From the IMG/VR virus record IMGVR_UViG_3300010413_000011, positions 1 through 64,000 of that record: 64,000 bases of DNA; one strand, given 5' to 3'. The notes under the pieces are model-generated. The model had not been told where the DNA came from. It saw only the letters and a program-made list of their open reading frames with translations, and ran no database searches. This DNA comes from a virus. Numbering within the stretch: position 1 is the first letter of the stretch; each line of letters opens with the position of its first letter. The position numbers and the translations under genes were made by a program. This document shows positions 34,444 through 51,843 of the stretch, in pieces.

Positions 34444-35185
34444 TGATTAACCTTTGTGTTCTCGCGTCGAGTTCACCTAAATGTAGTCGCTGTTTGAAAA
34501 TGATATAATCGATTTGTCCAGGACTCGCTGTCCCGTCCTCGAGACAATCCAGAGCCTCAAGGTATTTTCCGTCATCACCTAACTCGAGATCGACAGACTC
34601 GCCGTATTTCAATTTTCGAATTTCATTTTCGATTTTGTCGATCGAAATTAATTGGTTTGGTAAAGGAAATCTACCAAAACTTTTGAATCGTTTGATGTGT
34701 AATCTGATGTAGTCAGCATAAGAAATCCCATGCTCGTCTGCGATCGCTGCCGCCTTGACTAAAAAGTGATATACTTTTGAGGAAGGAGTTATAGGTCTTA
34801 AATGTTTGTTACCCAGGTGTTGAGATCTGAGCAGAGTATAAATTCGATTAAAGTGGTCAACCTTAGATTCTTGACTAACCACCGGCTTCGATGTCACTTC
34901 GAATCTTGCCAAATTGTTTAAGCGGATGGCGACAATGGAGCCATCTCTTCTAATGAGACCAGACTTCCTCAAGGTCTTCATACACCGTTTGGCATCTCTT
35001 AGTTCAATATCTAAAGTACTCGCCCATTCGCTCGCCTTCATTGGGATTTTCGATACGAATCGATATCTCATATACATCGAAACATAGAAAAATCTTGCCT
35101 CCAAAGGTAGGTCAAGTGTGTTTAAAGAGACGACAACTCGTCGAGTTTCAGCTAATACTTTTTCAGATTTCATTGAGATCCTCAT
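34406..35185 (-). CDS. Winged-HTH protein, possible replication initiator or helicase loader
   Basis: ASEWASTLDI..AKRCMKTLRKSGLI wHTH-like segment; upstream of the primase-helicase. Confidence 0.45.
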   Translation of the reverse strand: MRISMKSEKVLAETRRVVVSLNTLDLPLEARFFYVSMYMRYRFVSKIPMKASEWASTLDIELRDAKRCMKTLRKSGLIRRDGSIVAIRLNNLARFEVTSKPVVSQESKVDHFNRIYTLLRSQHLGNKHLRPITPSSKVYHFLVKAAAIADEHGISYADYIRLHIKRFKSFGRFPLPNQLISIDKIENEIRKLKYGESVDLELGDDGKYLEALDCLEDGTASPGQIDYIIFKQRLHLGELDARTQRLINGKKKSRRFCKE

Positions 35186-35645
35186 ACGGAAAGACTACCT
35201 TGCCATCATTAGGACCTATTCGTTGGGAAAAATAAATGGGTCGATATAACGTCTGCCCTAGATCTCGGTAAAATATAAACGCGCCTAGAGATTTTACCGA
35301 CATGCCGCTAAAACAAGCACCCTGAAAAGTCAAACCAGTATCTAAAATATCGTCGACAAAAATACAGCGGCCAACCGGTCTATCTAATCTTATGTCGAGT
35401 TTAAGGAAGTGAGATAACATTACGGCGGGTATGAGACCGCCCCGGGGCTCGCCCCATAATTTCCAAAGATGGTTCGGAGACCAAACAGTTTCCTCGGGAA
35501 TAATTAGATGACCTTGAAGTTCTTTTTGTAGTCGTTCAAGTTGTCTAATATTTGTAGTAGCCAAAATTTTTTTAATATCGATTGCCATCAACTCGATGTA
35601 ATCTATATAATCCTTCCATTCAACTTTAATCGGATTCGAAGACAT
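35163..35645 (-). CDS. Type I phosphoribosyltransferase
   Basis: GEPRGGLIPAVMLSH, IFVDDILDTGLT PRPP-binding loop, VVFPYE. Confidence 0.85.
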   Translation of the reverse strand: MSSNPIKVEWKDYIDYIELMAIDIKKILATTNIRQLERLQKELQGHLIIPEETVWSPNHLWKLWGEPRGGLIPAVMLSHFLKLDIRLDRPVGRCIFVDDILDTGLTFQGACFSGMSVKSLGAFIFYRDLGQTLYRPIYFSQRIGPNDGKVVFPYEDLNEI

Positions 35646-35794: not shown

Positions 35795-36403
35795 ATGAAA
35801 TTCTTAATCGCAGTTTTAGGTACTCATGGCTCTGGCAAAACTGAAATCTGCCAAAAAGTCTCAAGTCTTATACGTCACGCATTCTCAGACCTATCTGTTT
35901 CCTCAGTAGATAAAAAAGATAGTGTACCGAGATCTTTGGCAGAGGCAACGCAGTTATATAAAAATATCGACCATCGAACCCAGGTAGAAATTTGTTTTAA
36001 GGTTTTAACAAATGCGATGGCCGGTCTTGTCTATTATGACGTCGTTTTTGTCGATCGACTATTGGTCGATTCTATTGCTTATATTCGAACGGCAGAAAAA
36101 GTCGATCGCGGTATTATTGCCTCTCTAGATTCAGCAATTCGTTTTTTGTTTTTCGAGAGTCCTCATATCCATACCATAGTAGCTGTTCCGGCACCGAGTT
36201 TTCCCCTACCTAAAGATAATTTCAGATTCGAAGACGAAGAGTATCGCCAATATATTTCAAGATTGATTACGCGAGAACTAATTCGAATGGCTATACCGTA
36301 TTATTTTCTTGATCAAAAATCTTTAGATGAACGAATAAGTTATCTGACGAGTTACGTCAGTTCAGCAATATCATTATCGAAATTGAAAGGAGAAAAACAT
36401 TGA
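35795..36403 (+). CDS. P-loop nucleotide kinase (AAA_28/dNMP kinase-like)
   Basis: GTHGSGKT, VDRLLVDSIAY, DNFR motifs. Confidence 0.75.
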   Translation: MKFLIAVLGTHGSGKTEICQKVSSLIRHAFSDLSVSSVDKKDSVPRSLAEATQLYKNIDHRTQVEICFKVLTNAMAGLVYYDVVFVDRLLVDSIAYIRTAEKVDRGIIASLDSAIRFLFFESPHIHTIVAVPAPSFPLPKDNFRFEDEEYRQYISRLITRELIRMAIPYYFLDQKSLDERISYLTSYVSSAISLSKLKGEKH

Positions 36404-37215
36404 AAGTAGCTCACATAGTCGGTATTAACCATTTGAATTTGGTCAGGGATAAAAATTTCCATTTAGTTCTTGCTCATCTTCTCGACGAAAGTGCCACCTA
36501 CAGAAATTTCTATAAGGAAGTAGGTAACGAAGGTGCCTTTTTAATCTTGGACAACTCTGCGTTTGAGTTAGGCGAACCTTATCCGCCAGAGGAAATGATA
36601 AAACTAGGTAACGAAATCAACGCGTCGGAAATTATGGCGCCCGAGATTTACCAAGATGGCAGAGGAACGATCGAAGTAGTCGAGGAGTTTGCCGCAAAGG
36701 TTAAAGAATTAACTAATAAGAAATGGAATATCATAGCAACCATCCATGGTAAAACCTTCGACGATTGGATGAATTGTTTCAAAGCTATTATCTCGATCAA
36801 CAACATAACCACGATTGGTTTATCTTGTAGAGCGGCAGAGTATTTCACTGACCTACGGTCGAGTTCAGTCACCACCCAAAGAACTTTTAATCGGATTGGT
36901 CTTACTCATATCCTCAATAAAACCTGCGTCGGCAAGTTTACTCCTTTGAGACAGTACCATCTATTAGGTTCCACCGATCCTGTCCTCGAGTTAACTGTTC
37001 AAACGAAATACGATTGGATAAGAAGTATTGATACGAGTTCCGCTTTTGCTCATGGTTGTCAAGGTATAAACTTTGGTACCCGGGCTCTGGCAACCGAGAG
37101 GATAGGGGATATCGATTTCAATACGCCCCACGATCCTCATAAGATAAAAACCATTGTTCACAATATGAGAATACTTGACGAATTGGCAGGAGAAGAAAAT
37201 GATTTTACCAGGTAA
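36400..37215 (+). CDS. TGT-fold (transglycosylase-like) TIM barrel protein
   Basis: LILDNSAFE, TIHG, IGLS, HLLG and RSIDTSS follow the TGT/DpdA motif order. Confidence 0.6.
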   Translation: MKVAHIVGINHLNLVRDKNFHLVLAHLLDESATYRNFYKEVGNEGAFLILDNSAFELGEPYPPEEMIKLGNEINASEIMAPEIYQDGRGTIEVVEEFAAKVKELTNKKWNIIATIHGKTFDDWMNCFKAIISINNITTIGLSCRAAEYFTDLRSSSVTTQRTFNRIGLTHILNKTCVGKFTPLRQYHLLGSTDPVLELTVQTKYDWIRSIDTSSAFAHGCQGINFGTRALATERIGDIDFNTPHDPHKIKTIVHNMRILDELAGEENDFTR

Positions 37216-41652: not shown

Positions 41653-42570
41653 ATGATCTTAATTATCGACGGTAACAATGCGGCCTTCAGGGCTAATTCG
41701 GTTCTTACCATGAGTTGGAAGACCAAAAGGACAAGTGCCATTTTCGGAACTTTATCGATAGTTCGGTCAGTCATGAACAGAGTGGATCCTAGTAAAGTTA
41801 TCGTCGTATGGGACATCGGCGGTTCAAAATACCGAAAAAGATTGTTTCCTGAGTATAAAAAGAAACGAATCGAAAAAAGAGATGACGATGATTTCCAAAC
41901 TTTCATCGACCAAGTTCAAATACTCAGAGATCGAATCTTTCCAGTTCTAGGGATTACTCAAGCGGTAAAGTCTGGAGTCGAAGCGGATGATGTTATATAT
42001 CGTCTCGCAAAATACTACTCGGTTAAAAAGGAAAAAGTGATTATACTTTCGGGAGATACCGACTTGTATCAATTGGTGAGCAAACGAGTTTCAATAATCT
42101 CACCTAGTCGGAAACGAAACGATTTTATAACCAATAAAAACTTTACCCGGATTACTAAAGGATTGGATCAAGATCAATTTGTGTCATACAAAATGTTAGT
42201 CGGAGATCCTTCCGATGGTATCCCGGGCGTACCAGGTTTCGGTGACAAAACTTCTCGTGTGGCCTTGGGACACTATAAGTCGGCAGAGGAGGCGGTCGAG
42301 CATTATGACGAACTGGTTAAACTGATGCCTCGGATTGCCAGATATGTAACCAGTAAGAAGGCAGAGAGTATCGTTGACCGAAACCGAAAATTAATCGATT
42401 TAAGTATCTACAATCGACCGAAACGGGTAAAGGCTTCAACGAAATTATTAATTGAGTCTGAACTAAATGAACAGGAATTTCGAAAAATTTGTAAAGAGTT
42501 CGGGTTCGTTTATATACTATCTAATTTTATGGATTGGATTGAACCATTCAAAGAGTTGGACAGGGGGTGA
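41653..42570 (+). CDS. 5'-3' exonuclease/flap endonuclease (T4 RNase H-like)
   Basis: IIDGNN, YK..R, EADDVI, SGDTD, GDPSDGIPGVPGFGDKT. Confidence 0.92.
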   Translation: MILIIDGNNAAFRANSVLTMSWKTKRTSAIFGTLSIVRSVMNRVDPSKVIVVWDIGGSKYRKRLFPEYKKKRIEKRDDDDFQTFIDQVQILRDRIFPVLGITQAVKSGVEADDVIYRLAKYYSVKKEKVIILSGDTDLYQLVSKRVSIISPSRKRNDFITNKNFTRITKGLDQDQFVSYKMLVGDPSDGIPGVPGFGDKTSRVALGHYKSAEEAVEHYDELVKLMPRIARYVTSKKAESIVDRNRKLIDLSIYNRPKRVKASTKLLIESELNEQEFRKICKEFGFVYILSNFMDWIEPFKELDRG

Positions 42571-43550
42571 CCATGTATGGTTATCAAATTTATCTGACCC
42601 ACGGCTGTAATCTGCGGTGTCGGCAATGTGGTGTCTGGAGGGCCAAATCGATCGGTCGGGAAAAACAATGGACCGAATGGGCAGCTATCCTACCGACCAT
42701 GGTCCAGGTTTTCGAGAAAACATTTCATCGGAAACCAGCGTTCAAATTGATGGGAGGCGAACCAACAATTTATCCGGGTTTCGAAGAAGTTTGTAGAGCA
42801 ATTAAAACACTCGGTTGTAATATTTCTGTTCTGTCGAATGTTAGTAAAACCTGGCAGTGGGAAATGTTGACTCGAGTTTTGGGAAAAGGGGATTCAATTT
42901 TCGTTTCAATGGATTTCTTTCCGAATAGAAGGAAACAATATGAGATGAGATCCGATCCGGCAGAAGAGAAGGCTTTTGCTGCCCTCCATTTCATCGAGAC
43001 CTTTCCCGACAACCAAACCGATTTCGAGGTCGGCGTAAATATTACGGTATCTTCGGATACCTTGCCTAGATTATCTGGCCTTATTGATTGTTTGGTTCAG
43101 TTGAACGCTAAGATGAATATTTGTCTTCGGCAAGGCAGCGAACCGAATGAGGACGAACTCTACCACGTTCTTAGGGCACCGAATCGAACTGGCAATTTAA
43201 ACCAGGAGGAGGTCGACCAGTTAGTCAAAATTATGCTATCCGACTTATTGCCAGTTCCAGATCTTTTTCTCGGATCAAAGGAATACATTAGGATAATTCA
43301 GGTTCACGGAGCGAATAACGATTGGCATTGTAGAGATCAACTCCACCTTCCGTATATTTATTTGGATTGCGATGGTTCGGTAATGGCGTGTCCAGACGTC
43401 GCCTTACCAGATCCTCAGGTTTTACCTTTAGCGAGTCCGACTCCTTTTGTTTGGACCGAGAGGATGTTGAAGACCTATCGTGCCAAATGTTGTGGCTGTA
43501 CTATTTCGTCAGCGATGACCGATGTTGTCGCAGCACTCTGGGAGAAATAA
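42567..43550 (+). CDS. Radical SAM enzyme with SPASM/Twitch-like C-terminus
   Basis: LTHGCNLRCRQC, GGEP, C-terminal HC..LDCDGSVMAC..CCGC. Confidence 0.85.
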   Translation: MTMYGYQIYLTHGCNLRCRQCGVWRAKSIGREKQWTEWAAILPTMVQVFEKTFHRKPAFKLMGGEPTIYPGFEEVCRAIKTLGCNISVLSNVSKTWQWEMLTRVLGKGDSIFVSMDFFPNRRKQYEMRSDPAEEKAFAALHFIETFPDNQTDFEVGVNITVSSDTLPRLSGLIDCLVQLNAKMNICLRQGSEPNEDELYHVLRAPNRTGNLNQEEVDQLVKIMLSDLLPVPDLFLGSKEYIRIIQVHGANNDWHCRDQLHLPYIYLDCDGSVMACPDVALPDPQVLPLASPTPFVWTERMLKTYRAKCCGCTISSAMTDVVAALWEK

Positions 43551-43551
43551 A

Positions 43552-45462
43552 ATGATACTTTCTGCTCCTAAAATTGCCCATATTGGCTTGGACAATCGAG
43601 TTTACCAAACTCATTGCCTTCATCCGAAAAATTTTTTACAATTTTTGGGAGGGCGAGGATTGAACAGTCATCTGACTTTTCAAAACCGCTCTATTAATTT
43701 CCCGATGGTTTTTATTACTCCAGGGTTGTTGACTGGAACTCTGTGTCCATCGTCGTCTCGCTGTACTATTGGTACTAATATATCACCCTCTTTAGGAAGA
43801 TGGGCTGATGGGAATCTCGGAGGATTTTTTGGAGCTGAACTAAGAAGAGCAGGTTGGAATCAAATTTGGTTAGAAGGTATTTCCGAAAAACCTATTTTAA
43901 TATATATTGAAAACCAAAAAATAAAAAGTGTTGACGCTGGTAATCTTTGGGGACTCGGAGTTCATGACACAACTGAGAGAATCCGAGAAGAGTTTGGGCC
44001 GGACGCTCAGTCTCTTGTAATCGGGCCGGCCGGAGAAACCCAGGTCGCGTACGCCTGCGTTATGTCGGGCGATAGAGCGGCAGGAGGAGGCGGTATTGGT
44101 GCCGTCCTCGGGAAAATGAAAGTCAAGGCGATCGTTGTTCGGGGAACTAGAGGTCTTGAACCTGCCCAACCCGAGGAGTTTATGGACGCTTGTCTGGCGG
44201 CTCATAAACAAGTTCGATCGAATCCTTTGTTCGGTGAGTTTTCACAATCTGGTACTTCAATTATTACATCCATTTATAAAGGAGTCAAAGCACTACCGGT
44301 TAATTATTGGGATAAAGGAGATTCGCCACACGCTTACAAATTCGAACCAGGAAATTTGAAGACGAAAGTTGTAAAAAGTCGAGCTTGCTATGGTTGTTCG
44401 ATTCATTGCTCTCATGAACTTACTTTCGGGTTCGAAGGGGTAGAGTACGAGGCGTTGAACGGGCTCGGTCTTAAAATTGGAATCACCGATCTAGACGAAT
44501 GCCTTCGTTTGATAAAATGGTTCAACAACCTGGGTCTCGATGTAGTCCAGACCTCTGGCGTTCTAGGTATGTTGATGAAAATGACCGAAGATGGCTTCGC
44601 GATGAATATGGATCGAATTAAATTTGGAGATGCTGAGGCTATTTGGACGCGAGTTGCTAGTTGGATGGATAGTAGAAGAAGAGATCTCAGTTTTTGGAAT
44701 GGTCTTGACGCCGGGTTCGAAAGATATTCTGAGATATTTCCTCCAGGTCCTGACGGAAATAAGGGCGATGTTCTTAAACGATTCCGTCGAAAGTATTCGG
44801 TCGATATTAAAAATTCAATGCCACCCAGCCTAGACTTCAGGGTTCCAGAAAACTTTGCGGCTACTATTGCTTGTATGACGGCTACTCGAGGCGCTGACCA
44901 TCTTAGAAGTTTGGCACCGATTGAGGCCTACGGTCAGTGGTACGGGAGAGAGGATCTCGAGGCGATGGCTATTCATTTTGGAATACCATCTGATATTATG
45001 AAAGAATGGTTGGACCTGGACGGGTTCGATCCTAAAATAAATTCGAAAAGTATAAGAGGAAAGGTTGCTATCATTTCTTACTTTCAAGATCAAAATGCTG
45101 TGACCGATGCCCTGGGTCTTTGTCGATTCGCCTCAAGTTGGAGAATGGGAGTCGGCCTCGAGTTGATGGCGGAGATGGTTTCGACTTTTCTTGGTATAGA
45201 TATGAACTGGTGTGGCCTGCGAGCAGTGGGCCAGAGGATAACCGTCTTAGAAAGATATCTGAACTCGAAAGTGTACGGCATGAATAAGTTCAGTGATTAT
45301 CCTCCCGAGAAATTTTTCGTAGAGCCTTTGAATGGGAGGAATCAACTCTCACATCATGACGTAAGATCAGCCCGCGATCAGTTCTATGAGTATAACGGAT
45401 ATGACGAGCAGGGATGTCCGACACCGGATACTTTTGAAAAATTAGGATTGGTTGTCAAATGA
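43552..45462 (+). CDS. aor: Aldehyde:ferredoxin oxidoreductase family (W/Mo-pterin) large subunit
   Basis: GGRG, SSR..SP, IGPAGE, GAVLG..KAIVVRG, CYGCSIHC, EYE, GLD, RGADH, DALGLCRF, GYDEQGCPT. Confidence 0.9.
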   Translation: MILSAPKIAHIGLDNRVYQTHCLHPKNFLQFLGGRGLNSHLTFQNRSINFPMVFITPGLLTGTLCPSSSRCTIGTNISPSLGRWADGNLGGFFGAELRRAGWNQIWLEGISEKPILIYIENQKIKSVDAGNLWGLGVHDTTERIREEFGPDAQSLVIGPAGETQVAYACVMSGDRAAGGGGIGAVLGKMKVKAIVVRGTRGLEPAQPEEFMDACLAAHKQVRSNPLFGEFSQSGTSIITSIYKGVKALPVNYWDKGDSPHAYKFEPGNLKTKVVKSRACYGCSIHCSHELTFGFEGVEYEALNGLGLKIGITDLDECLRLIKWFNNLGLDVVQTSGVLGMLMKMTEDGFAMNMDRIKFGDAEAIWTRVASWMDSRRRDLSFWNGLDAGFERYSEIFPPGPDGNKGDVLKRFRRKYSVDIKNSMPPSLDFRVPENFAATIACMTATRGADHLRSLAPIEAYGQWYGREDLEAMAIHFGIPSDIMKEWLDLDGFDPKINSKSIRGKVAIISYFQDQNAVTDALGLCRFASSWRMGVGLELMAEMVSTFLGIDMNWCGLRAVGQRITVLERYLNSKVYGMNKFSDYPPEKFFVEPLNGRNQLSHHDVRSARDQFYEYNGYDEQGCPTPDTFEKLGLVVK

Positions 45463-46079
45463 GAAAAGAACGAATTAAAAGTCTATGGAGTCATCTTACA
45501 TCGACACCGGTCGAAATCGTTCGAGGTTTTTCTCGTGCCGTTGTTTTGGTGACAAGGCAGTTAATCCTTTTAGAGAATCCTGTAGAAAGGATCTTACCGA
45601 AGTCAGCGCTCCTCTGTTCTTTTCAGCCTAAAAAACTTTCATACGAAAAGGCTGACTCATACCTGGGTTTCCTCCTAACCAAAAGGATTAGAGTCGATTA
45701 TACTAAATGTACGGGCTGTAAGGCATGCGAGTTGGCGTGCTCTTTAAACCATTACGGACGCTGCGAACCCGAGGAATCGAGAATCAGAATTGACCGACAA
45801 TGTAAAAAGTCGGCAGAGTTCTTTCCTTTCGTTTGTCAACACTGTACGATGCCCGAATGCGTTGTGGTCTGCCCGTCTGGAGCTTGTACGAGAACAAAAG
45901 AAGGTCTCGTAGTCGTAGACCCGGAACTTTGTATTGGTTGTAAACTTTGTATAATCGTTTGTCCGCTGAGTTCAGCGGCATGGAATTGGAGATTAGGTCA
46001 ATCGATGAGATGCGATCTTTGCGAAGGTGAACCGGTCTGTGTCAAGGTTTGCTCGACTAAGGCCATCGATTTTCATTGA
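45459..46079 (+). CDS. 4Fe-4S multicluster electron-transfer subunit (AOR partner)
   Basis: CTGCKACELAC, CQHC..PECVVVCP, CIGCKLCIIVCP, CDLC..PVCVKVC; ATGA overlap with the AOR stop. Confidence 0.9.
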   Translation: MRKERIKSLWSHLTSTPVEIVRGFSRAVVLVTRQLILLENPVERILPKSALLCSFQPKKLSYEKADSYLGFLLTKRIRVDYTKCTGCKACELACSLNHYGRCEPEESRIRIDRQCKKSAEFFPFVCQHCTMPECVVVCPSGACTRTKEGLVVVDPELCIGCKLCIIVCPLSSAAWNWRLGQSMRCDLCEGEPVCVKVCSTKAIDFH

Positions 46080-46090
46080 GGAGATAGATC

Positions 46091-46351
46091 ATGGTAGAAA
46101 CAGAGCAACAAAAAGTCTATGAGGCTCTAGTTGGTTTAGGATATATTTACGGAGTGAATTGCGCACTAGAGCATATAGGCATTGACCATCGAATAATGCC
46201 AGAACAGGATGACGAGAAAGAAGGAATACTCTATCCTTGGTACGATAAAGGACCATCGGGACAAATGGAAAAGAAATTAAAACAATTGGCAAGTAATTTG
46301 GTTCAAGATGGAATTTCAGTAGCTGACGTGGAACAATGGGGTTCGTTTTGA
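46091..46351 (+). CDS. Hypothetical protein
   Basis: GAGGAG RBS; in the operon. Confidence 0.6.
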   Translation: MVETEQQKVYEALVGLGYIYGVNCALEHIGIDHRIMPEQDDEKEGILYPWYDKGPSGQMEKKLKQLASNLVQDGISVADVEQWGSF

Positions 46352-46379
46352 TCCCTAAAGGTCAAAGAAGGAGAAGATT

Positions 46380-47957
46380 ATGAAATGGAATGAAGGAATC
46401 TTTAAGGCAAGAGAATTTCCAGACGAGCCGTTGAGTATGTTTTCTTGCCTAGCGGAATTGTGTAATTCGCAACCATCGGTCCCCTGGAATTATGCTGGTC
46501 GAATGATTCGAGTAACCGAAAAAGTTTCGATCGACTACGAGATAATGAAATTCGTTCGCGCTTCGGCTGACGATCCCTCTGGATTTAGCCCCGGGTTCAT
46601 ATTCGAGAATGTTTCGAGTGAGATGGCACCAGATCCGAAAACGACTCGATATCCAATCTCTGTTGTCGCTGGAATGTATGGAACCGAGGCACGAGTAAGT
46701 CGTATATTGGATTGGTGTTTAGGAACCAAAGAAAAATTCGACTTAAGTACTCCGGCCTGGCGAAAATATCAGCGAGCGTTGAACAGAACGTCACATGGCG
46801 TGGTTCGGATTTTTCCCGAAAGAGACGACTTAGGTCATGTATACGACATTCGATACGAACTCCAAGACCTTCCGATTTGTCTTCACAACGAAAGAGACGG
46901 AGGTCGATTCATCACCGGAGGTGTCCAGATCGTCTGGGATCCGGAATTCGAATGTTATGTCTCTGGTATTCACCGAATGAAGGTCATCGATAAAAATACT
47001 CTCGGGTGTTTGGCTACCGGCGAAAGAAGGATCGGTAGAGCGATAATGAAATGGCATGAACGAGGATTTAAGGCACCTGTTATTACATTAATAGGAGCCG
47101 CACCTTGCGACGTTTTCGCGTCTCAAGCCAAAGTACCTCATAACACGGATAAGTATGCTGTCGCAGATCGCTTCACACCCGGAAACGAGAAGAGAGATTT
47201 TTGTGGTTGGACTCCTTCCAAACATGCGAAATACGCTCCCGACCACTTACATATTATCCCTACAGATTCTGAAATTGTTATTTTGGGATTAGTTCCATTA
47301 GGCGAACCGAACAAACCAAACCTTATTAACGACAACCCGTTTGGGGAATTTCCTGGTACCTATTCCTTTTCGAATACTTCCGCGGCTTGGAGAGTAGAAG
47401 TAGAATATGTTATGACCAGATCCGACGCACCGATCTATCAAACCATGACCACCGGATTCCCTGTGCTCGAGGATCATATTCTTTGTGGCACGGCGAATGT
47501 TCCTTACCTCTTCGAAATTCTTCAAAGAGCCTGTTCAGAAGTGGTCGATATTAGCTTGGGAAAAGAAGGCAACTATGTTTTCGATGCTCACGTTTCCATT
47601 AAAAAGAGAATGTCTGGCGAAGCGCGCAATGTTATTTTAGCAGCGCTCTCGACCGTCACTATAAAAAGTGTTTGGATATACGACGACGACATCGACGTTC
47701 ATAATCCTCGTGACCGGCAGTTCGCATGGAACACGAGATACCAGCCTGCGACCGATACAATTATTATTGGCCATCCTTTGGTTGGTTCGAGTCTCGATCC
47801 ATCTTGTCCTGTCTTTCGGCACACGACTAAGGTAGGTTTTGACTGTACCAAACCTTTAGGTCAGGAGGATCGATACAAAAAGGCTTTGTGGCCAAAGGAT
47901 GAAATAGAAATCTATTCGAAAAAAGTACTCGATTTAATCGATAAGTGGGAGGACTAA
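46380..47957 (+). CDS. ubiD: UbiD-family (prFMN-dependent) reversible decarboxylase
   Basis: DLP..HNERDGGRFIT, GIHRM, PFGEFPGTY, DDDIDV..FAWNTR.QP..D, LDPS, KVGFDCTKP. Confidence 0.9.
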   Translation: MKWNEGIFKAREFPDEPLSMFSCLAELCNSQPSVPWNYAGRMIRVTEKVSIDYEIMKFVRASADDPSGFSPGFIFENVSSEMAPDPKTTRYPISVVAGMYGTEARVSRILDWCLGTKEKFDLSTPAWRKYQRALNRTSHGVVRIFPERDDLGHVYDIRYELQDLPICLHNERDGGRFITGGVQIVWDPEFECYVSGIHRMKVIDKNTLGCLATGERRIGRAIMKWHERGFKAPVITLIGAAPCDVFASQAKVPHNTDKYAVADRFTPGNEKRDFCGWTPSKHAKYAPDHLHIIPTDSEIVILGLVPLGEPNKPNLINDNPFGEFPGTYSFSNTSAAWRVEVEYVMTRSDAPIYQTMTTGFPVLEDHILCGTANVPYLFEILQRACSEVVDISLGKEGNYVFDAHVSIKKRMSGEARNVILAALSTVTIKSVWIYDDDIDVHNPRDRQFAWNTRYQPATDTIIIGHPLVGSSLDPSCPVFRHTTKVGFDCTKPLGQEDRYKKALWPKDEIEIYSKKVLDLIDKWED

Positions 47958-47958
47958 A

Positions 47959-48363
47959 ATGGCAAAGAAGAAAAGTTTAAACAATAGGGAAAGGGAAATC
48001 GGACGTAAGTTAGGAGTTACCCGGAGGGCTGAACACGACTATGCGACAGAGTTTGATCCTTTCGAACAAGGATACCGAGAGTCCATGGAACACGAGTCTG
48101 ACGAATTCAAATACGTTCTGCCCGGATGTTTCGGTAGGATGAATTTTTGGCCTCCTCGAGAAGAGTTGAAGGCCGTGTCTGGCATGGACGAAGGTTTCGT
48201 AATTCAAAAGGGAGTTGCTCAGTATTTGGAAGGTGAGAGACAAGCCGGGATTGTCAAAAAGTGTTTAGGTTGTTCTCAATACCAGCGATGTGCTTTGGCT
48301 ACCGTAGTTGGTAAAACTTCCTCAATCCGAGAGAAAACTAAACCTACTCCCGTAGACGAATAA
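47959..48363 (+). CDS. Hypothetical Cys-containing protein
   Basis: GGGAGG RBS; PGCFG...CLGC....C motif. Confidence 0.6.
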   Translation: MAKKKSLNNREREIGRKLGVTRRAEHDYATEFDPFEQGYRESMEHESDEFKYVLPGCFGRMNFWPPREELKAVSGMDEGFVIQKGVAQYLEGERQAGIVKKCLGCSQYQRCALATVVGKTSSIREKTKPTPVDE

Positions 48364-48383
48364 TTTTTGAGACAGGAGGAATT

Positions 48384-49349
48384 ATGAAAATCGAATTAAT
48401 GCGCCACACGGTTGAACCAGAAGAGCTGTTGGAAGAACTGGTAGAGCTTAGTTACCGGACGCAACACTTCCCGAAACACCCTGCTCTTGTCGAATTTAAG
48501 AGTGGTCGTCAAGTTCCTTTGACCCAATTGAAAAATCTTACCATGATTCCGAAACCCGGTACTGTGATCCCTGGGTTTGAAAAAGACGACGTAGAAGTTG
48601 TTAAGGTGATCCCCAGGACAGCAGAGAAGGCAGTCAGGTTCGCCATCGCCATCGGACATTTCGCTTTGTTCCGTCAGGTAACTGTAACCTGGAGAGTCGA
48701 ACTCAGCAGGAAATCTGTTCTTCATTATTTGAGATACCAACATACAGCAGAGAACATGGTGTCACAAAAATACCTCGACCAAGGTCAGTTCGAATTTATA
48801 ATGCCGACAACCCGAGATTATCCTCCCGAGGAACTCATGGTCTATAAAGAAGCAATGCAAACGATTCAGTCATATTATGAACGCCTTCGGAATTTCGGCT
48901 GGGACCCGGAGGATGCTCGACTGGTTTACCCGAACTCTGCTCTTCAAAAATTTATCTTCACCGCTAATATGGAAACCATGCGTCGGCTATTTGATATCCT
49001 ATGCGACGAGGACTACGTCGATGAGATGCATCGGTTCGGTTTGGCCATGTTGGCTACCATTAAAAAAGTTATGCCAGCGTTCGTATATGATTACAGATTC
49101 TATTCGAGGAATGACGACGGACATATTTATGCGAAGCGTCGGAGAAGAAAAGGTGGAGACAACGTTAAAGTGAATTGGACTGATCCGAATTGGATGGAGG
49201 AAGATGAGAAACGAGAAACCGACGAAGTTTGTCGACTCCAAGAAAAAATACCTAATGAGTTAATAAATTTTGCGAATGAAGGTCAACGATTCTTCACTGT
49301 AGTTCCTGAAAACGAAATTCCAGAACCGGAACATTGGGAAACAGAATGA
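48384..49349 (+). CDS. ThyX-fold flavoprotein with non-canonical active-site motifs
   Basis: GH......T, SR, RYQ-X7-SQKY (canonical RHR-X7-S.RY), EDARLVYPN, TAN. Confidence 0.75.
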   Translation: MKIELMRHTVEPEELLEELVELSYRTQHFPKHPALVEFKSGRQVPLTQLKNLTMIPKPGTVIPGFEKDDVEVVKVIPRTAEKAVRFAIAIGHFALFRQVTVTWRVELSRKSVLHYLRYQHTAENMVSQKYLDQGQFEFIMPTTRDYPPEELMVYKEAMQTIQSYYERLRNFGWDPEDARLVYPNSALQKFIFTANMETMRRLFDILCDEDYVDEMHRFGLAMLATIKKVMPAFVYDYRFYSRNDDGHIYAKRRRRKGGDNVKVNWTDPNWMEEDEKRETDEVCRLQEKIPNELINFANEGQRFFTVVPENEIPEPEHWETE

Positions 49350-49525
49350 AAGTAGTCGCAACACAACTAAAACTCGAGAACATAGAAATTCTCCACAATG
49401 CGAAGAAGGGAGATACGCTCTCCCTAAAAATAATTAATACGCAGGAAGTGCCACTTGATGAAGACGGACTCGACCCAGACAGCTGTCTCTTGGTTCTCTT
49501 CGGACGATTGGGAACCGGGAACTAA
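49346..49525 (+). CDS. Small hypothetical protein
   Basis: ATGA coupling to the ThyX-like stop; overlaps the start of the next gene. Confidence 0.4.
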   Translation: MKVVATQLKLENIEILHNAKKGDTLSLKIINTQEVPLDEDGLDPDSCLLVLFGRLGTGN

Positions 49526-50597
49526 CGATAGAATAGGTTTTGAAAAAGTTTGCAATAAAGGAGTGCGCCGAGACACTTACAACGGTTTATACTTTAAGGG
49601 TGGATCAGGCGCCTCTGAATTTTTCAAAACCGAGCCAGATCAAAAGCAGATCAAAATTCATCGAACCAAGATCTTCTTAACCACTACTCGAGCACAACAC
49701 ATGTGGGGCCTTCTCGACGCGAACTACCCTTACATTTTAATGTCGTTTTGGTACTACAAGACCGTGACAAATGTTTTCGGTTCCCTCCGGAATGCCTTTG
49801 CTGCTCGAGATAAAAACATCGACGATTTCGAAATTATGGTAGATAGCGGCTCGTACAGTGCTACGGTCAAAGGTACCTCGGTAGATCTGGATACTTATAT
49901 TGAATGGCTCTACCACGAAGAGGATAATGTCGATTGGTATGTTAACCTCGATACTCAGTTCAAACCAGAAGAGGGACTTCGAAACTGGGCGATCCTTTGT
50001 GCGAACGGATTACATGACGCCATTCATGTCCACCATAGACCAGAGCCTTGGAAGTACTGGGATATTATAGCAGATCATTGTGGAGAGTTTGGAGGTCTTA
50101 GTCCGATGCCTCGAGCAAAGAGAGGCGTTAAACTCGAGTACTTTACCAAAGCTCATTCAATGCACCCACAGAAGAAACTTCATTGGTTTGGCTCTGTCGA
50201 TAAAGAGTTGGCCAAAATGTTCGATGTATATTCTATGGACTGCTCGAGTGCTGACGCGGTCGCTTATCGCGGGATTGTTTGGACTCCTTGGGGAGCGGTT
50301 AACCTGGGTTTTAACCCGAACTACAGTAATCACATTGATCGCTTACCTCTTGACATCCGCTCTAAGGTCACCGAATGGTTTATGACACATGGTTTTGAGC
50401 TTCATGATTTAAGGCCCGGGAGACCCTATATGCCTTCGCATAGATTCAGAATTTATTTCAACGCACTGGGTTATCTCGCGTCCATGGTCGAGATTGAAAA
50501 AGAGAAAAGTTTAATTGAGTTACCAGATCCAGAATGGATTCGGTCTTCGGAAATTTATACTAATTATGAAAGTGAGTTACCAAAAGGATGGAAGTGA
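49458..50597 (+). CDS. dpdA: DpdA/TGT-like DNA base-exchange transglycosylase (paralogue 1)
   Basis: LMSFWY, IMVDSGSYS, YVNLD, HVHH, GLS, LHWFG, YSMDCSS. Confidence 0.75.
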   Translation: MKTDSTQTAVSWFSSDDWEPGTNDRIGFEKVCNKGVRRDTYNGLYFKGGSGASEFFKTEPDQKQIKIHRTKIFLTTTRAQHMWGLLDANYPYILMSFWYYKTVTNVFGSLRNAFAARDKNIDDFEIMVDSGSYSATVKGTSVDLDTYIEWLYHEEDNVDWYVNLDTQFKPEEGLRNWAILCANGLHDAIHVHHRPEPWKYWDIIADHCGEFGGLSPMPRAKRGVKLEYFTKAHSMHPQKKLHWFGSVDKELAKMFDVYSMDCSSADAVAYRGIVWTPWGAVNLGFNPNYSNHIDRLPLDIRSKVTEWFMTHGFELHDLRPGRPYMPSHRFRIYFNALGYLASMVEIEKEKSLIELPDPEWIRSSEIYTNYESELPKGWK

Positions 50598-50824
50598 TGG
50601 CAACCTCGTATTTTAGAGGTCACAAAGGTTGGTACGACAATATTGAAAAAGTATGGAAGTATTTCGATACCAATCTTCCTATCGATCCTCGTCGCCCTTG
50701 TGTCCGATGTGGTAAAGAACCCACTCCCGAAGGTCATGACGCGTGTTTGGGACGGCTAGACGGTGCGTGGTCAGCCTGTTGTGGTCATGGAGTAATAGAA
50801 CCATATTTAAAAATTACATTATGA
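50597..50824 (+). CDS. Small Cys/His-rich phage protein
   Basis: FRGH..RPCVRCG..GHDACLG..ACCGHG. Confidence 0.6.
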   Translation: MATSYFRGHKGWYDNIEKVWKYFDTNLPIDPRRPCVRCGKEPTPEGHDACLGRLDGAWSACCGHGVIEPYLKITL

Positions 50825-51843
50825 GAAACCCTACAACATTTAAAGTCGGAACCGGTCGAGTCATGGTCCCGCACGATCACAAAAAGACTCGACTTTTTCT
50901 TGCCGTTAGTAACATGACAAGTTTTAGACCGATCGTCCGCTATACCTATCCATATCTTTTGATGAGTTATGCCTTTCTGAGAAGGTGGTGTCGGAGTTGG
51001 CGCTGTAACTCGATGAAGGAACTCTTTGCTTTATATGGTGGTGACATTCGAGACTTCAAAATAATGATTGACAGCGGTTCCTATACAGTCACGACTAAAG
51101 GAATTAATATAACAATTGACGACTATATAGAATTCCTATATGAAGAATGGGGTTCCTATAATTGGTATGTCAATTTGGATCTCCAATTTAAACCCGAAGT
51201 TGGCCTCGAGAACTATTTAATAATGTGCGCCAACGGCCTTCACGACGCAATTCATGTTCATCACCGACCGGAACCCTGGAAGTATTGGGATATGATTTGT
51301 AACGATATGGGTCCGTATGCCGGGCTCAGTCCCATGCCCAGGGCTTCAATGACGATCAAGAGAGAATATTTTTTGAAGGCCCATTCAATGCATCCCGATG
51401 TAAAAGTTCATTGGTTTGGGTCTGGCGCAATAACATTAATCAAACAGTTCGGTCCTTACTCTGTAGATGTTTCCTCTTATACTCAGATGGCTGGAATGGG
51501 TCATTGCTATTTTCCTTTTGGTACTTTCTACTTTGGTAGAAATACTTCGATTAAAAATTATTATGGAAACCTCGATAGTTCAATTCGAAAACAAATAAGA
51601 AAGTATCTCAAAACCGTTCCCCATTTTGTCGAAGATCGATTTATTAAACCCGAAGATCTGTTGTCACCAGTTCAAGATGAAACGGAAGCTCGTACCGCAG
51701 TCAATGTATGGTACTTCATGACTCATCTTCAATCGGCAATAAACGAAGAAAGAAATCTTTTGTCTCTTGAGGATGGTGACTTAATTCGCTACTCACCGTG
51801 GTATCACGGATGGGAAGATAAACCAATAGAGAAATGGAGTTGA
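50821..51843 (+). CDS. dpdA: DpdA/TGT-like DNA base-exchange transglycosylase (paralogue 2)
   Basis: LMSYAF, IMIDSGSYT, YVNLD, HVHH, GLS, VHWFG, YSVDVSSY; long identical blocks shared with paralogue 1. Confidence 0.75.
   Translation: MRNPTTFKVGTGRVMVPHDHKKTRLFLAVSNMTSFRPIVRYTYPYLLMSYAFLRRWCRSWRCNSMKELFALYGGDIRDFKIMIDSGSYTVTTKGINITIDDYIEFLYEEWGSYNWYVNLDLQFKPEVGLENYLIMCANGLHDAIHVHHRPEPWKYWDMICNDMGPYAGLSPMPRASMTIKREYFLKAHSMHPDVKVHWFGSGAITLIKQFGPYSVDVSSYTQMAGMGHCYFPFGTFYFGRNTSIKNYYGNLDSSIRKQIRKYLKTVPHFVEDRFIKPEDLLSPVQDETEARTAVNVWYFMTHLQSAINEERNLLSLEDGDLIRYSPWYHGWEDKPIEKWS

What the first reader, a model, noticed from the sequence alone, without database searches (positions are those of the whole stretch)
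42567..51843. Candidate undescribed anaerobic DNA base-modification pathway: rSAM, AOR, 4Fe-4S, UbiD, ThyX-like and two DpdA-like genes
Seen: ten same-strand, overlapping or closely spaced genes between the phage 5'-3' exonuclease and the RNR. They show the same frequent TCGA as the rest of the phage, so they do not look like a recent host insert. Established: DpdA/TGT enzymes exchange bases in DNA; AORs interconvert R-CHO and R-COOH using ferredoxin; UbiD enzymes (de)carboxylate aromatic or heteroaromatic rings; BtrN/anSME-type radical SAMs oxidise alcohols to carbonyls without O2; ThyX adds one-carbon units to pyrimidine C5. I know of no described phage modification system using AOR or UbiD. 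Inference: the set forms an O2-independent one-carbon redox ladder on a nucleobase (CH2OH, CHO, COOH, H), and the gene order matches it. The substrate could be a 7-deazaguanine (CDG to the 7-formyl or decarboxylated base) or pyrimidine C5 (an anaerobic counterpart of TET/JBP chemistry), with the product inserted by the DpdA pair.
Basis: partly seen in the sequence, partly recalled or inferred. Interest (0 to 1): 0.95.

Follow-up and report, generated by a model that had tools for sequence, protein, structure and literature searches.

The report
Phage deazaguanine cluster with AOR and UbiD
An uncultivated phage that carries enzymes for swapping guanine in DNA for a 7-deazaguanine lacks the usual genes for making that base and instead has an oxygen-sensitive aldehyde oxidoreductase, a UbiD decarboxylase, a radical SAM enzyme and an odd ThyX-like protein, which probably form a new way to supply or tailor the base.

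Summary
Ten same-strand, mostly translationally coupled genes lie between the 5'-3' exonuclease and a class II RNR:
- a SPASM/twitch radical SAM enzyme
- an AOR with its poly-ferredoxin
- orf86, a UbiD, and orf134
- a divergent ThyX-fold protein
- two DpdA-like paralogs flanking orf78

- A DpdA3-type DNA guanine transglycosylase sits 5 kb upstream (36400-37215), beside a PRTase homologous to one in a DpdA3 phage's deazaguanine cluster.
- UbiX is encoded elsewhere on the contig.
- Both DpdA-like paralogs keep every guanine-recognising and catalytic residue of DpdA/TGT.

So the substrate is far more likely a 7-deazaguanine than a pyrimidine.

Of 80 other DpdA3 viral loci, 73 carry canonical FolE/QueD/QueE/QueC/QueF/DpdN genes and none carries AOR or UbiD. 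This 92.7 kb contig (about 68% complete) has none of the canonical genes. TubF in tubercidin biosynthesis is a published precedent for a UbiD enzyme proposed to act on the 7-carboxy-7-deazaguanine skeleton.

My best reading (about 0.5): an O2-independent formyl, carboxy, H ladder at C7, with the product inserted by the DpdAs. The chemistry is inferred, not shown. Conserved linkage in other phages could not be shown here. An earlier, unverified note of this scan (e1-2927970) reports a similar AOR-UbiD-DpdA3 phage family on other DNA.

The parts
35163..35645 (-). Small phosphoribosyltransferase (160 aa) with a VDDILDTG PRPP motif. It is divergently transcribed from the operon start.
   Evidence: 36% identity, E 6e-12, to the PRTase of Flavobacterium phage immuto_2-6A. 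That PRTase lies between QueE and FolE in a DpdA3 phage. Weak phrog_8995 hit.
35795..36403 (+). P-loop dNMP/thymidylate-kinase-like protein. Its end overlaps the DpdA3 start.
   Evidence: AAA_28 4e-8; phrog_2107 'thymidylate kinase' 5e-11. A P-loop kinase or ATPase also sits next to DpdA3 in phiST, CP220 and immuto.
36400..37215 (+). DpdA3-subfamily DNA guanine transglycosylase (271 aa).
   Evidence: The tblastn hits are the DpdA3 phages of Cui et al. 2023. Pairwise E values are 2.5e-25 (immuto DpdA), 1.4e-22 (Youna2), 7e-17 (CP220) and 6e-16 (phiST gp042). The motifs LDN, H-L-L-G and S-x-D-T are invariant.
42567..43550 (+). Radical SAM enzyme with a C-terminal SPASM/twitch-like cysteine motif (327 aa).
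   Evidence: PF04055 4e-10. CX3CX2C near the N-terminus, and CX14GX4C plus CCGC near the C-terminus. Atlas neighbours are viral rSAM/SPASM clusters and an AslB-named cluster.
43552..45462 (+). Tungsten/molybdenum-pterin aldehyde:ferredoxin oxidoreductase family enzyme (636 aa).
   Evidence: AFOR_N and AFOR_C. Best PDB match is P. furiosus AOR 1aor, 2e-62, with the CxxCxxxC...C cluster ligands and the EYE glutamate aligned. It forms its own clade with P0002 on a long stem.
45459..46079 (+). Poly-[4Fe-4S] electron-transfer subunit (206 aa).
   Evidence: Fer4_11 3e-14; PadI/DmsB-like in NCBIfam. A homologous Fer4 gene gives tblastn matches (46 alignments, not counted per locus) among 80 cellular AOR loci.
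46091..46351 (+). orf86, unknown, directly upstream of UbiD. Possibly a UbiD accessory protein (inference).
   Evidence: No family hit. Small accessory proteins often accompany UbiD enzymes (PMC10865409).
46380..47957 (+). UbiD-family prFMN-dependent (de)carboxylase (525 aa).
   Evidence: UbiD_N, UbiD and UbiD_C domains. TIGR00148 scores 197 bits, below its 244.85 cut-off. Nearest solved relatives are HmfF 6h6v, indole-3-carboxylate decarboxylase AnInD 7p9q and a phenolic acid decarboxylase (PDB 7ae4). The IHR Arg and PFGE Glu are kept. UbiX is on the same contig at 89082-89699, outside the window.
47959..48363 (+). orf134, unknown, with four Cys. Its start lies 1 nt after the UbiD stop.
   Evidence: No family, Atlas or fold lead.
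48384..49349 (+). ThyX-fold protein of a rare subfamily with an altered signature (LRY...NMxSQKY instead of RHRx7S.RY).
   Evidence: Thy1 82.9 bits. The thyX equivalog scores 53, below its 87.9 cut-off. Alignment to ThyX structures. Only one other cluster was found in 5.8 billion proteins. The variant motifs are conserved at 40% identity.
49563..50597 (+). DpdA-like transglycosylase A (new tight subfamily).
   Evidence: phrog_887 1e-15. AlphaFold model pLDDT 84; Z about 20 to ArcTGT/TGT. Motifs DSGSY, NLD, HVHHRPE and S-x-D-x-SS.
50588..50824 (+). orf78, a small ORF overlapping the TGTa stop and the TGTb start.
   Evidence: Start/stop overlaps and an AAAAGG ribosome-binding-like site. No homologs found.
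50821..51843 (+). DpdA-like transglycosylase B, a paralog 41-42% identical to A.
   Evidence: phrog_887 6e-21. Best GenBank phage hits are Streptococcus MS1 DpdA (1e-13) and Cellulophaga phiSM (5e-8). Two subfamily members (P0123, P0124) have the same listed contig length, 16,499 bp, which suggests the pair recurs on one contig.

Best explanation
The block is the base-supply or base-tailoring half of a phage 7-deazaguanine DNA-modification system.

The phage has three DpdA-family base-exchange enzymes: DpdA3 and a pair from a new subfamily. On the 92.7 kb in hand it has none of the usual GTP-to-preQ0/preQ1 genes.

I propose that the enzymes act on a free 7-deazaguanine base, or its ribonucleotide made by the PRTase, taken from the host's queuosine pathway. 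The proposed steps are:
1. A C7 side chain is brought to the aldehyde. The SPASM/twitch radical SAM enzyme is the candidate, for example acting on the aminomethyl group of preQ1.
2. The W/Mo-pterin AOR oxidises the 7-formyl group to the 7-carboxy group (CDG) and passes electrons to its poly-ferredoxin subunit.
3. The prFMN enzyme UbiD, with cofactor from the phage's own UbiX, removes the carboxyl to give 7-deazaguanine.
4. The DpdA enzymes exchange genomic guanine for the product(s).

The ThyX-fold protein, which has lost the dUMP/FAD signature, may add a one-carbon unit to a base. Alternatively it may be a very divergent nucleotide enzyme.

Shown: the gene identities, the intact catalytic motifs, the operon context, the presence of DpdA3, PRTase and UbiX, and the absence of canonical genes.

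Inferred: the substrate, the direction of the reactions and their order.
For: 1. The phage is a DpdA phage.
- DpdA3 lies at 36400-37215.
- Two further paralogs have the TGT fold (Z about 20) and profile homology to DpdA 7UI4 (E 1e-6).
- They keep the equivalents of Asp95/Phe99, Asp130, His181 and Asp256. These residues bind guanine or 7-deazaguanine and catalyse the exchange (residue roles from PMC10164549).

2. Canonical genes are missing.
- No FolE, QueD, QueC or TGT Pfam match in the contig.
- No tblastn hit for 12 canonical phage proteins at E <= 0.01.
- By contrast, 73 of 80 other DpdA3 viral loci have at least one such gene within 10 kb.
- In relatives such as L188 that cassette sits beside the RNR in the replication module, as this block does.

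3. There is a chemical precedent. TubF, a UbiD-family enzyme, is proposed to decarboxylate the CDG ribonucleotide (PMC6112128). Among the nearest solved UbiDs are heteroaromatic acid decarboxylases (furan and indole-3-carboxylate), alongside a phenolic acid decarboxylase. dDG is a known DpdA3-phage base whose decarboxylase, DpdL, was not validated (PMC10516641).

4. UbiD and AOR look functional and phage-adapted.
- UbiX is encoded on the contig.
- Cluster and catalytic residues are kept.
- The AOR forms its own long-branch clade with an 80%-identical second contig.
- The composition signature is shared with the rest of the phage.

5. UbiD-AOR-Fer4(-UbiX) adjacency exists in cells for a neighbouring AOR clade, in Chloroflexota loci L084-L086. 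So the two enzymes can work as one module.

6. The genes are tightly coupled to replication genes.
Against: - No substrate evidence of any kind exists. The direction of the AOR and UbiD reactions is assumed from thermodynamics.
- The contig is linear and about 68% complete, so canonical genes may lie in the missing third.
- AOR and UbiD were found next to DpdA3 in 0 of 80 viral loci.
- No relatives of the AOR, the TGT pair or PolA are in IMG/VR. Recurrent linkage is therefore not shown here.
- The contigs that carry the other TGT-pair members (16.5 and 25 kb) do not appear among the listed close AOR homologs.
- The phage UbiD is no closer to the Chloroflexota UbiD than to other UbiDs.
- The rSAM has no informative relatives.
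- Why three DpdAs and a ThyX-like protein are needed is unexplained.
Confidence: 0.5

Rival explanations
1. Mixed block. The rSAM, AOR, Fer4 and UbiD genes are an auxiliary metabolic module taken from an anaerobic host. It would act on aromatic or heteroaromatic aldehydes and acids, for detoxification or for ferredoxin reduction during infection. Only the DpdA genes, and perhaps ThyX, would concern DNA.
For: - The nearest cellular AOR clade sits in a catabolic-looking cluster with a GntR regulator, UbiX, a PreA-like reductase, UbiD, an HdrD-like protein and an aminotransferase.
- AOR-Fer4 pairing is generic: Fer4 tblastn matches (46 alignments) occur among the 80 cellular AOR loci.
- The combination is absent from 80 DpdA3 loci, from GenBank phages and from IMG/VR, as expected for a rare accessory acquisition.
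Against: - The genes sit inside the replication operon and are translationally coupled to the exonuclease at one end. They continue into ThyX, the DpdAs and the RNR.
- Only 34-36% identity to any cellular AOR, and the phage AOR sits on its own long branch, so this is not a recent pick-up.
- The phage keeps UbiX 41 kb away.
- The phage lacks the usual base-synthesis genes, which leaves a gap that this module could fill.
Confidence: 0.22
2. Same enzymes run in the biosynthetic direction. UbiD would carboxylate a base. AOR, driven by reduced ferredoxin, would reduce the acid (for example CDG) to the 7-formyl base. That base would then be elaborated further, giving a new C7 derivative that the new DpdA pair inserts.
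For: - UbiD and AOR reactions are reversible in principle (established knowledge of both families).
- Two extra DpdA paralogs of a new subfamily could reflect a new base.
- The ThyX-like subfamily conserves its altered motifs, which suggests a new substrate.
Against: - Acid reduction by AOR is strongly uphill, and carboxylation by UbiD needs high CO2.
- No downstream reductase or aminotransferase is on the contig. No class-V aminotransferase was found.
- There is no data on the products.
Confidence: 0.12
3. Pyrimidine C5 ladder. ThyX-like makes a 5-hydroxymethyl pyrimidine. The rSAM, AOR and UbiD then take it through formyl and carboxy forms, as an anaerobic counterpart of TET/JBP chemistry.
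For: - A ThyX-fold gene lies in the block.
- The Chloroflexota UbiD-AOR cluster contains a dihydropyrimidine-dehydrogenase-like gene.
- The contig has no ThyA.
Against: - The sequence U, hmU, fU, caU, U is a futile cycle.
- The three base-exchange enzymes keep the guanine-recognising Asp/His set, and DpdA3 phages are known only for 7-deazaguanines.
- The AOR and UbiD active sites are buried and suit small molecules rather than DNA (established knowledge of both families).
Confidence: 0.06
4. The radical SAM gene is a maturase for the AOR cofactor (cmo/TIGR04317-like) rather than a pathway enzyme. The rest of the main explanation is unchanged.
For: - The rSAM gene lies directly upstream of the AOR with 1 nt between them.
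- TIGR04317, 'tungsten cofactor oxidoreductase radical SAM maturase', is among its NCBIfam hits (2.4e-8).
- It carries a SPASM-type C-terminus.
Against: - The score is 33.5 bits against a cut-off of 380, no better than the viperin or NrdG2 hits.
- No rSAM homolog was found beside 87 cellular AOR loci, apart from one match at E 0.007.
- The Atlas neighbours are mainly viral rSAM clusters.
Confidence: 0.25
5. Chimeric assembly that joins a bacterial fragment to a phage contig.
For: None was found. The test by read mapping could not be run.
Against: - GC content and the unusual TCGA/TCG/CGA signature are the same inside and outside the block.
- Genes overlap phage genes at both ends.
- An 80%-identical AOR exists on a second contig.
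- UbiX lies elsewhere on the same contig.
Confidence: 0.02

Closest known systems
Phage 7-deazaguanine DNA modification systems with DpdA3 (Cellulophaga phiST, dDG; Campylobacter CP220, dADG; Flavobacterium immuto_2-6A, fdPreQ1; Cui et al. 2023, PMC10516641)
   Same: - A DpdA3 homolog aligned end to end with theirs.
- A P-loop kinase-like neighbour.
- dUTPase and a polymerase close by.
- A PRTase homologous to that of immuto.
- Location in the replication module.
   Different: - No FolE, QueD, QueE, QueC, QueF, DpdL, DpdM or DpdN on 92.7 kb.
- Instead there are AOR, Fer4, UbiD/UbiX, a SPASM rSAM, a ThyX-like protein and two extra DpdA paralogs. None of these occurs in 80 DpdA3 viral loci.
Tubercidin biosynthesis TubE/TubF (Streptomyces; PMC6112128)
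   Same: A UbiD-family decarboxylase is proposed to remove the C7 carboxyl of a 7-carboxy-7-deazaguanine ribonucleotide made by a PRTase. This phage has both a UbiD and a small PRTase.
   Different: - That pathway is secondary metabolism in an aerobic actinomycete and includes the full CDG pathway.
- It has no AOR, rSAM or DpdA.
- Direct similarity between the phage UbiD and TubF could not be tested, because no TubF sequence was available in the tools.
Bacterial Dpd system DpdA (S. Montevideo, PDB 7UI4; PMC10164549) and tRNA-guanine transglycosylases
   Same: TIM-barrel TGT fold. The catalytic Asp pair and the Asp/His that read the Watson-Crick edge of guanine are conserved.
   Different: - Identity is about 11-16%.
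- No conserved Cys cluster corresponds to the TGT zinc site. An invariant HxHHRPE motif is present instead.
- No DpdB/DpdC partners.
- The genes occur as a conserved paralog pair.
AorABC-type and archaeal tungsten aldehyde oxidoreductases with poly-ferredoxin subunits (P. furiosus AOR 1aor; bacterial AOR 8c0z)
   Same: The same two-domain architecture, [4Fe-4S] ligands, the second pterin motif DxxGLC, and an adjacent Fer4_11 subunit.
   Different: - Encoded by a virus.
- The first pterin motif reads NNLGLD rather than DxxGLD.
- Only 28-36% identical to any cellular AOR.
- No FAD/NAD subunit.
- Embedded among DNA-metabolism genes.
Chloroflexota UbiX - PreA-like - UbiD - AOR clusters (loci L084-L086)
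   Same: UbiD lies directly beside an AOR from one of the closest cellular AOR groups to the phage enzyme (34-36% identity), together with Fer4 subunits and UbiX.
   Different: - It is a cellular cluster that looks catabolic and regulated, with extra AOR paralogs, HdrD-like and aminotransferase genes and no DpdA.
- The phage AOR is not inside this clade.
- The UbiDs are only 27% identical.

Membership tests
DpdA/TGT superfamily (paralogs A and B) | TGT-type TIM-barrel fold | tested here: met
   The AlphaFold model (pLDDT 84, residues 64-380) aligns to ArcTGT 1iq8 at Z 20.3 (rmsd 3.4 A, 269 aligned) and to Z. mobilis TGT at Z about 19.6.
DpdA/TGT superfamily (paralogs A and B) | Catalytic Asp general acid/base and Asp nucleophile (Asp95 and Asp256 of S. 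Montevideo DpdA) | tested here: met
   The DSGSY and S-x-D-x-SS aspartates are invariant in the subfamily and in 60 wider relatives. They align to DCGAF and SIDSTT of 7UI4.
DpdA/TGT superfamily (paralogs A and B) | Asp and His that bind the Watson-Crick edge of guanine/7-deazaguanine (Asp130, His181) | tested here: met
   The NLD Asp and the third His of HVHH align to SLD and VAH of 7UI4.
tRNA-guanine transglycosylase (Pfam TGT PF01702) | Match to the Pfam model and a Cys/His zinc site | tested here: not met
   No PF01702 match in the contig at E <= 1. Only 1 of 60 family members matches it. No invariant Cys in the subfamily alignment. The zinc-site positions are recalled from knowledge of Z. 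mobilis TGT.
DpdA/TGT superfamily | Guanine-for-deazaguanine exchange in DNA | not testable with these tools
   Needs an enzyme assay or nucleoside LC-MS.
DpdA3 subfamily (36400-37215) | Full-length homology to the founding members (phiST CGPG_00065, CP220, immuto DpdA) | tested here: met
   Pairwise E values from 6e-16 to 2.5e-25 over about 220-265 residues. The hit list consists mainly of the founding DpdA3 phages (Campylobacter, Cellulophaga, Flavobacterium), plus Bacillus, Vibrio, Weizmannia, Aeromonas and Rhizobium phages.
DpdA3 subfamily (36400-37215) | Co-location with 7-deazaguanine synthesis genes | tested here: not met
   None found on 92.7 kb, against 73 of 80 other DpdA3 loci. The contig is only about 68% complete.
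AOR family (W/Mo-pterin aldehyde:ferredoxin oxidoreductases) | AFOR_N and AFOR_C domains above the curated cut-offs | tested here: met
   169.7 and 221.3 bits, against cut-offs of 29.8 and 27.
AOR family | [4Fe-4S] ligands CxxCxxxC...C and the active-site Glu | tested here: met
   CYGCSIHC aligns to CYACPIGC, GLC aligns to the fourth Cys, and VEYEA aligns to PEYES of 1aor. These positions are invariant in 20 relatives.
AOR family | Two pterin-binding DxxGL(C/D) motifs | tested here: inconclusive
   The second motif is intact (DALGLC). The first reads NNLGLD, with Asn in place of Asp. The active-site His was not checked.
AOR family | Metal (W or Mo) and aldehyde substrate | not testable with these tools
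   Needs metal analysis and enzyme assays.
UbiD family (prFMN decarboxylases) | Three UbiD domains and the catalytic Arg and Glu | tested here: met
   PF20695, PF01977 and PF20696 are all above their cut-offs. IHR and PFGE align to HmfF. The first acidic residue is Asp (DNPFGE).
UbiD family | Score above the NCBIfam subfamily cut-off | tested here: not met
   TIGR00148 scores 197.4 bits against a cut-off of 244.85. This is a divergent member.
UbiD family | A UbiX flavin prenyltransferase available | tested here: met
   The contig encodes one at 89082-89699. TIGR00421 scores 136.2 bits against a cut-off of 108.9.
ThyX (flavin-dependent thymidylate synthase) | Thy1 fold/domain | tested here: met
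   PF02511 scores 82.9 bits against a cut-off of 24.8. The AlphaFold model was too poor to add anything (pLDDT 40).
ThyX (flavin-dependent thymidylate synthase) | ThyX signature RHRx7S.RY and the equivalog score | tested here: not met
   The signature reads LRYQ...SQKY. GHTALLEH reads GHFALFRQ. Two Arg of N.R....F...R are lost. TIGR02170 scores 53.1 against a cut-off of 87.9. The variant motifs are conserved in the only relatives.
Radical SAM / SPASM-twitch enzymes (anSME, BtrN and kin) | CX3CX2C cluster motif and a C-terminal CX9-15GX4C auxiliary-cluster motif | tested here: met
   CNLRCRQC near the N-terminus. C-x14-G-x4-C and CCGC near the C-terminus.
anSME / BtrN dehydrogenase subgroup | Specific family match | tested here: inconclusive
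   No anSME or BtrN model is among the 22 NCBIfam hits. An AslB-named Atlas cluster appears at rank 7. The phage sulfatase-like gene has Thr, not Cys or Ser, at the formylglycine position, so it needs no maturase.
TIGR04317 tungsten-cofactor oxidoreductase rSAM maturase | Equivalog score | tested here: not met
   33.5 bits against a cut-off of 380.

The most novel reading that the evidence does not exclude
A virus encodes a complete oxygen-independent route that converts a host queuosine precursor (preQ1 or 7-formyl-7-deazaguanine) into 7-deazaguanine, or into a not-yet-described C7 derivative. The steps would be radical SAM oxidation, oxidation by a tungsten/molybdenum AOR, and prFMN (UbiD/UbiX) decarboxylation. 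A ThyX-fold enzyme repurposed for a free base might add a one-carbon step. The product would be written into DNA by three DpdA enzymes, including a new, probably heterodimeric pair. This would be the first pterin-metalloenzyme and the first prFMN enzyme in nucleic-acid modification. It would also supply the missing decarboxylase logic for dDG.
Probability: 0.3. Interest if true: 0.9.

Novelty: new variant of a known kind. Interest (0 to 1): 0.78.

Why it matters
Phage 7-deazaguanine DNA is a known defence against restriction enzymes. Every described system builds the base with the GTP cyclohydrolase/QueD/QueE route and tailors it with QueC, QueF, DpdL, DpdM or DpdN.

If this block does what I propose, it would have four consequences:
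- It adds two cofactor classes (W/Mo-pterin and prenylated FMN) to nucleic-acid modification chemistry.
- It shows how anaerobe phages can parasitise host queuosine intermediates instead of carrying the pathway.
- It offers a testable candidate for CDG decarboxylation, the step leading to dDG that remains unvalidated in phiST.
- It defines a new DpdA subfamily that occurs as a pair.

Each enzyme can be tested directly with available substrates: CDG, preQ1 and 7-formyl-7-deazaguanine.

Tried and rejected
The contexts of P0002, P0123/P0124, P0125, P0282 and the sister AORs could therefore not be read.

Searches that found nothing:
- Relatives in IMG/VR of the AOR, searched as a single protein and as an alignment.
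- Relatives in IMG/VR of the TGT pair, PolA and UbiD (the search patterns were poor).
- A five-sequence DpdA3 alignment was too divergent to search with.
- The metagenome scan with the AOR alignment returned only generic AORs, because the patterns were too general. It carried no UbiD, TGT or ThyX neighbours.
- GenBank phages: no AOR, no rSAM relative. UbiD hits were bacterial contigs or UbiD-UbiX fragments only.
- The TGT-pair profile was not found in 401 Chloroflexota genomes.

Ideas rejected:
- The rSAM as anSME for the phage sulfatase-like gene. That protein has T-L-P-A-V at the formylglycine site.
- The weak DHO_dh Pfam hit on 36400-37215. The gene is DpdA3, not a dihydroorotate-dehydrogenase-like enzyme.
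- The phage kinase-like protein as a homolog of the phiST gp041 ATPase. This was not detectable.

Other negative or unusable results:
- The ThyX-like AlphaFold model is unusable (pLDDT 40).
- orf134 has no Atlas or family lead.
- Promoter and terminator scans did not exceed chance.
- Other UbiD paralogs of the Chloroflexota MAG are not next to AORs.

Full report
**What is there**

The window is the first 64 kb of a 92.7 kb linear IMG/VR viral contig, estimated about 68% complete.

Structural genes fill the first 28 kb. A long co-directional replication and nucleotide-metabolism block starts at about 35.8 kb. In order it contains:
- a P-loop kinase-like gene
- a 271-aa gene (36400-37215)
- dUTPase
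- PolA with an N-terminal UDG domain
- a gp32-like protein
- a 5'-3' exonuclease
- the ten flagged genes
- a class II (B12) RNR
- RecA, GT2, Mre11/Rad50, DHH, RuvC and a sulfatase-like protein

Their starts and stops overlap or lie 1-28 nt apart, except for one gap of 213 nt before the first DpdA-like gene.

GC content and an unusual excess of TCGA/TCG/CGA are the same inside and outside the block. TCGA is the most over-represented tetramer, with O/E 2.7. I see no sign of a recent insert or of a chimera. The read-level test could not be run.

**The two DpdA-like genes**

Pfam does not see them. The supporting evidence is:
- phrog_887 matches both.
- A profile of the family hits the solved bacterial DpdA (7UI4) at 1e-6.
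- A confident AlphaFold model aligns to archaeosine TGT and bacterial TGT at Z about 20.

The alignment to 7UI4 was read against the residue roles given by Gedara et al.. Both paralogs keep:
- the general acid and stacking aromatic (DSGSY)
- the Asp and His that read the Watson-Crick edge of guanine (NLD and the third His of HVHHRPE)
- the nucleophile (S-x-D-x-SS)

They belong to a very small subfamily, with nine proteins at E < 1e-30 among 1.8 billion representatives. It sits within a family of about 4,000 phage-type DpdA relatives. Two subfamily members (P0123, P0124) share a listed contig length of 16,499 bp, which suggests the pair recurs on a second contig.

- The 271-aa gene at 36400-37215 is a DpdA3. 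Its phage hits include the Cellulophaga (phiST), Campylobacter (CP220) and Flavobacterium (immuto) phages in which Cui et al. 2023 defined that subfamily.
- A 160-aa PRTase across the divergent promoter is homologous to the PRTase inside the immuto deazaguanine cluster.
- The contig also encodes a bona fide UbiX, as another note of the scan had suggested.

This phage therefore belongs with the 7-deazaguanine phages.

**What is missing**

No FolE, QueD or QueC Pfam match was found in the contig. Twelve canonical phage proteins (FolE, QueD, QueE, QueC, QueF, DpdN) give no tblastn hit at E <= 0.01.

I fetched 80 DpdA3-encoding viral loci from IMG/VR.
- 73 of them have at least one canonical gene within 10 kb.
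- None has AOR, UbiD, UbiX, a class-V aminotransferase, the TGT pair, the ThyX-like gene or the rSAM.
- In relatives such as L188 the canonical cassette sits beside the RNR in the same kind of replication module.

So this phage is an outlier. A redox/decarboxylase block occupies the place where its relatives keep base-synthesis genes. The caveat is that a third of the genome is unseen.

**The redox and decarboxylase genes**

AOR:
- It keeps its cluster ligands and active-site Glu. One pterin motif is altered.
- It is 80% identical to a protein on one other contig and at most 36% identical to anything else.
- In a tree, the two form their own clade on a long stem.
- Its Fer4 partner recurs near cellular AOR genes (46 tblastn alignments among 80 loci).

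UbiD:
- It is divergent, scoring below the NCBIfam cut-off, but keeps the catalytic Arg and Glu.
- Among solved structures it is closest to furan-dicarboxylate and indole-3-carboxylate decarboxylases.

In three Chloroflexota MAG loci that carry a neighbouring AOR clade, UbiD lies directly upstream of the AOR. UbiX, a PreA-like reductase, Fer4 proteins and an aminotransferase are nearby. So UbiD and AOR can operate as one module in cells.

The rSAM has a SPASM/twitch-type C-terminus. It has no informative relatives.

The ThyX-fold protein lacks the RHR...S.RY signature. It belongs to a two-cluster subfamily that conserves the altered motifs.

**Mechanism**

Free-base (or nucleotide) chemistry followed by base exchange is the logic of every DpdA system. 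Both the AOR and UbiD active sites suit small molecules.

CDG is a pyrrole-3-carboxylic acid fused to a pyrimidine. That makes it formally like indole-3-carboxylate. A UbiD-family enzyme, TubF, has already been proposed to decarboxylate its ribonucleotide in tubercidin biosynthesis.

dDG is a known DpdA3-phage base whose proposed decarboxylase, DpdL, could not be validated.

The most economical reading is a downhill sequence at C7, from aldehyde to acid to H. The AOR and UbiD would be the two central steps. The rSAM would be the candidate for making the aldehyde from a host intermediate such as preQ1. The DpdAs would be the writers. All of this is inference.

The reverse, biosynthetic direction is less likely. 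So is a pyrimidine ladder, or an unrelated auxiliary-metabolism role for the AOR-UbiD part. None of these is excluded.

**Novelty**

- Four literature searches found no paper that links AOR or UbiD to phage DNA modification.
- GenBank phages contain no AOR.
I could not reach those sequences, and I did not find such loci among the 80 I examined. If it is right, it would be independent recurrence.

**Verdict**

- This is a new variant of a known kind of system.
- Interest is high, but everything beyond gene identity awaits experiment.

Noticed in passing
whole contig; window 1-64000: TCGA is the most over-represented tetramer (940 observed against 346 expected from base composition). TTCG, CGAA, CTCG, CGAT and GTCG follow. 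The excess is explained by TCG and CGA trinucleotides (Markov-2 O/E 1.02). ACGT, TGCA, AGCT and CTAG are depleted. A link to the DNA modification or to a target motif is possible but untested.
   Followed up: partly
window 37650-40313, and contig 90309-90974 (L083:10309-10974): PolA carries an N-terminal UDG-superfamily domain. A separate family-4 UDG is also encoded (TIGR00758, 1.7e-32), along with a dUTPase at 37175-37729. Together these suggest strong exclusion of uracil.
   Followed up: no
window 61609-62679: A sulfatase/alkaline-phosphatase-superfamily protein has T-L-P-A-V where sulfatases have C/S-x-P-x-R. It is therefore probably a Thr-nucleophile phosphodiesterase or transferase rather than a sulfatase.
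   Followed up: partly
window 55882-56814: A GT2 glycosyltransferase lies between RecA and Mre11/Rad50. Another note suggests it decorates the modified base. This was not examined.
   Followed up: no
L085:5776-21829 (Chloroflexia MAG CAZQFV010000015.1): A cellular cluster with, in order: GntR, UbiX, a PreA-like gene (DHO_dh plus two 4Fe-4S), UbiD, AOR, an HdrD-like gene, an M29-like gene, Fer4, AOR, Fer4, a class-V aminotransferase, Fer4 and AOR. It looks like an undescribed anaerobic pathway for an aminomethyl-, formyl- or carboxy-substituted N-heterocycle.
   Followed up: partly
protein P0089: A Heimdallarchaeota MAG protein of 670 aa combines the AOR domains with an OMP-decarboxylase domain (PF00215). 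This is another hint of AOR links to heterocycle carboxylates.
   Followed up: no
loci L109-L188 (IMG/VR): Among 80 DpdA3 loci, 65 carry a DpdN-like formyltransferase, 57 carry QueF and 7 carry the small PRTase. A common order is RNR, QueD, DpdA3, DpdN, QueF, QueC, QueE. At least 547 DpdA3-encoding viral contigs exist, far more than the published set.
   Followed up: partly
window 28767-29213: A 148-aa protein has a weak sigma-70 region 2 match (2.6e-4). It may be a phage sigma factor.
   Followed up: no
protein P0274: The only relative of the ThyX-like protein that carries a source name comes from TARA station 39, mesopelagic, 0.1-0.22 um fraction. From my own knowledge this is an Arabian Sea oxygen-minimum site, which would fit an anaerobic host.
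   Followed up: no
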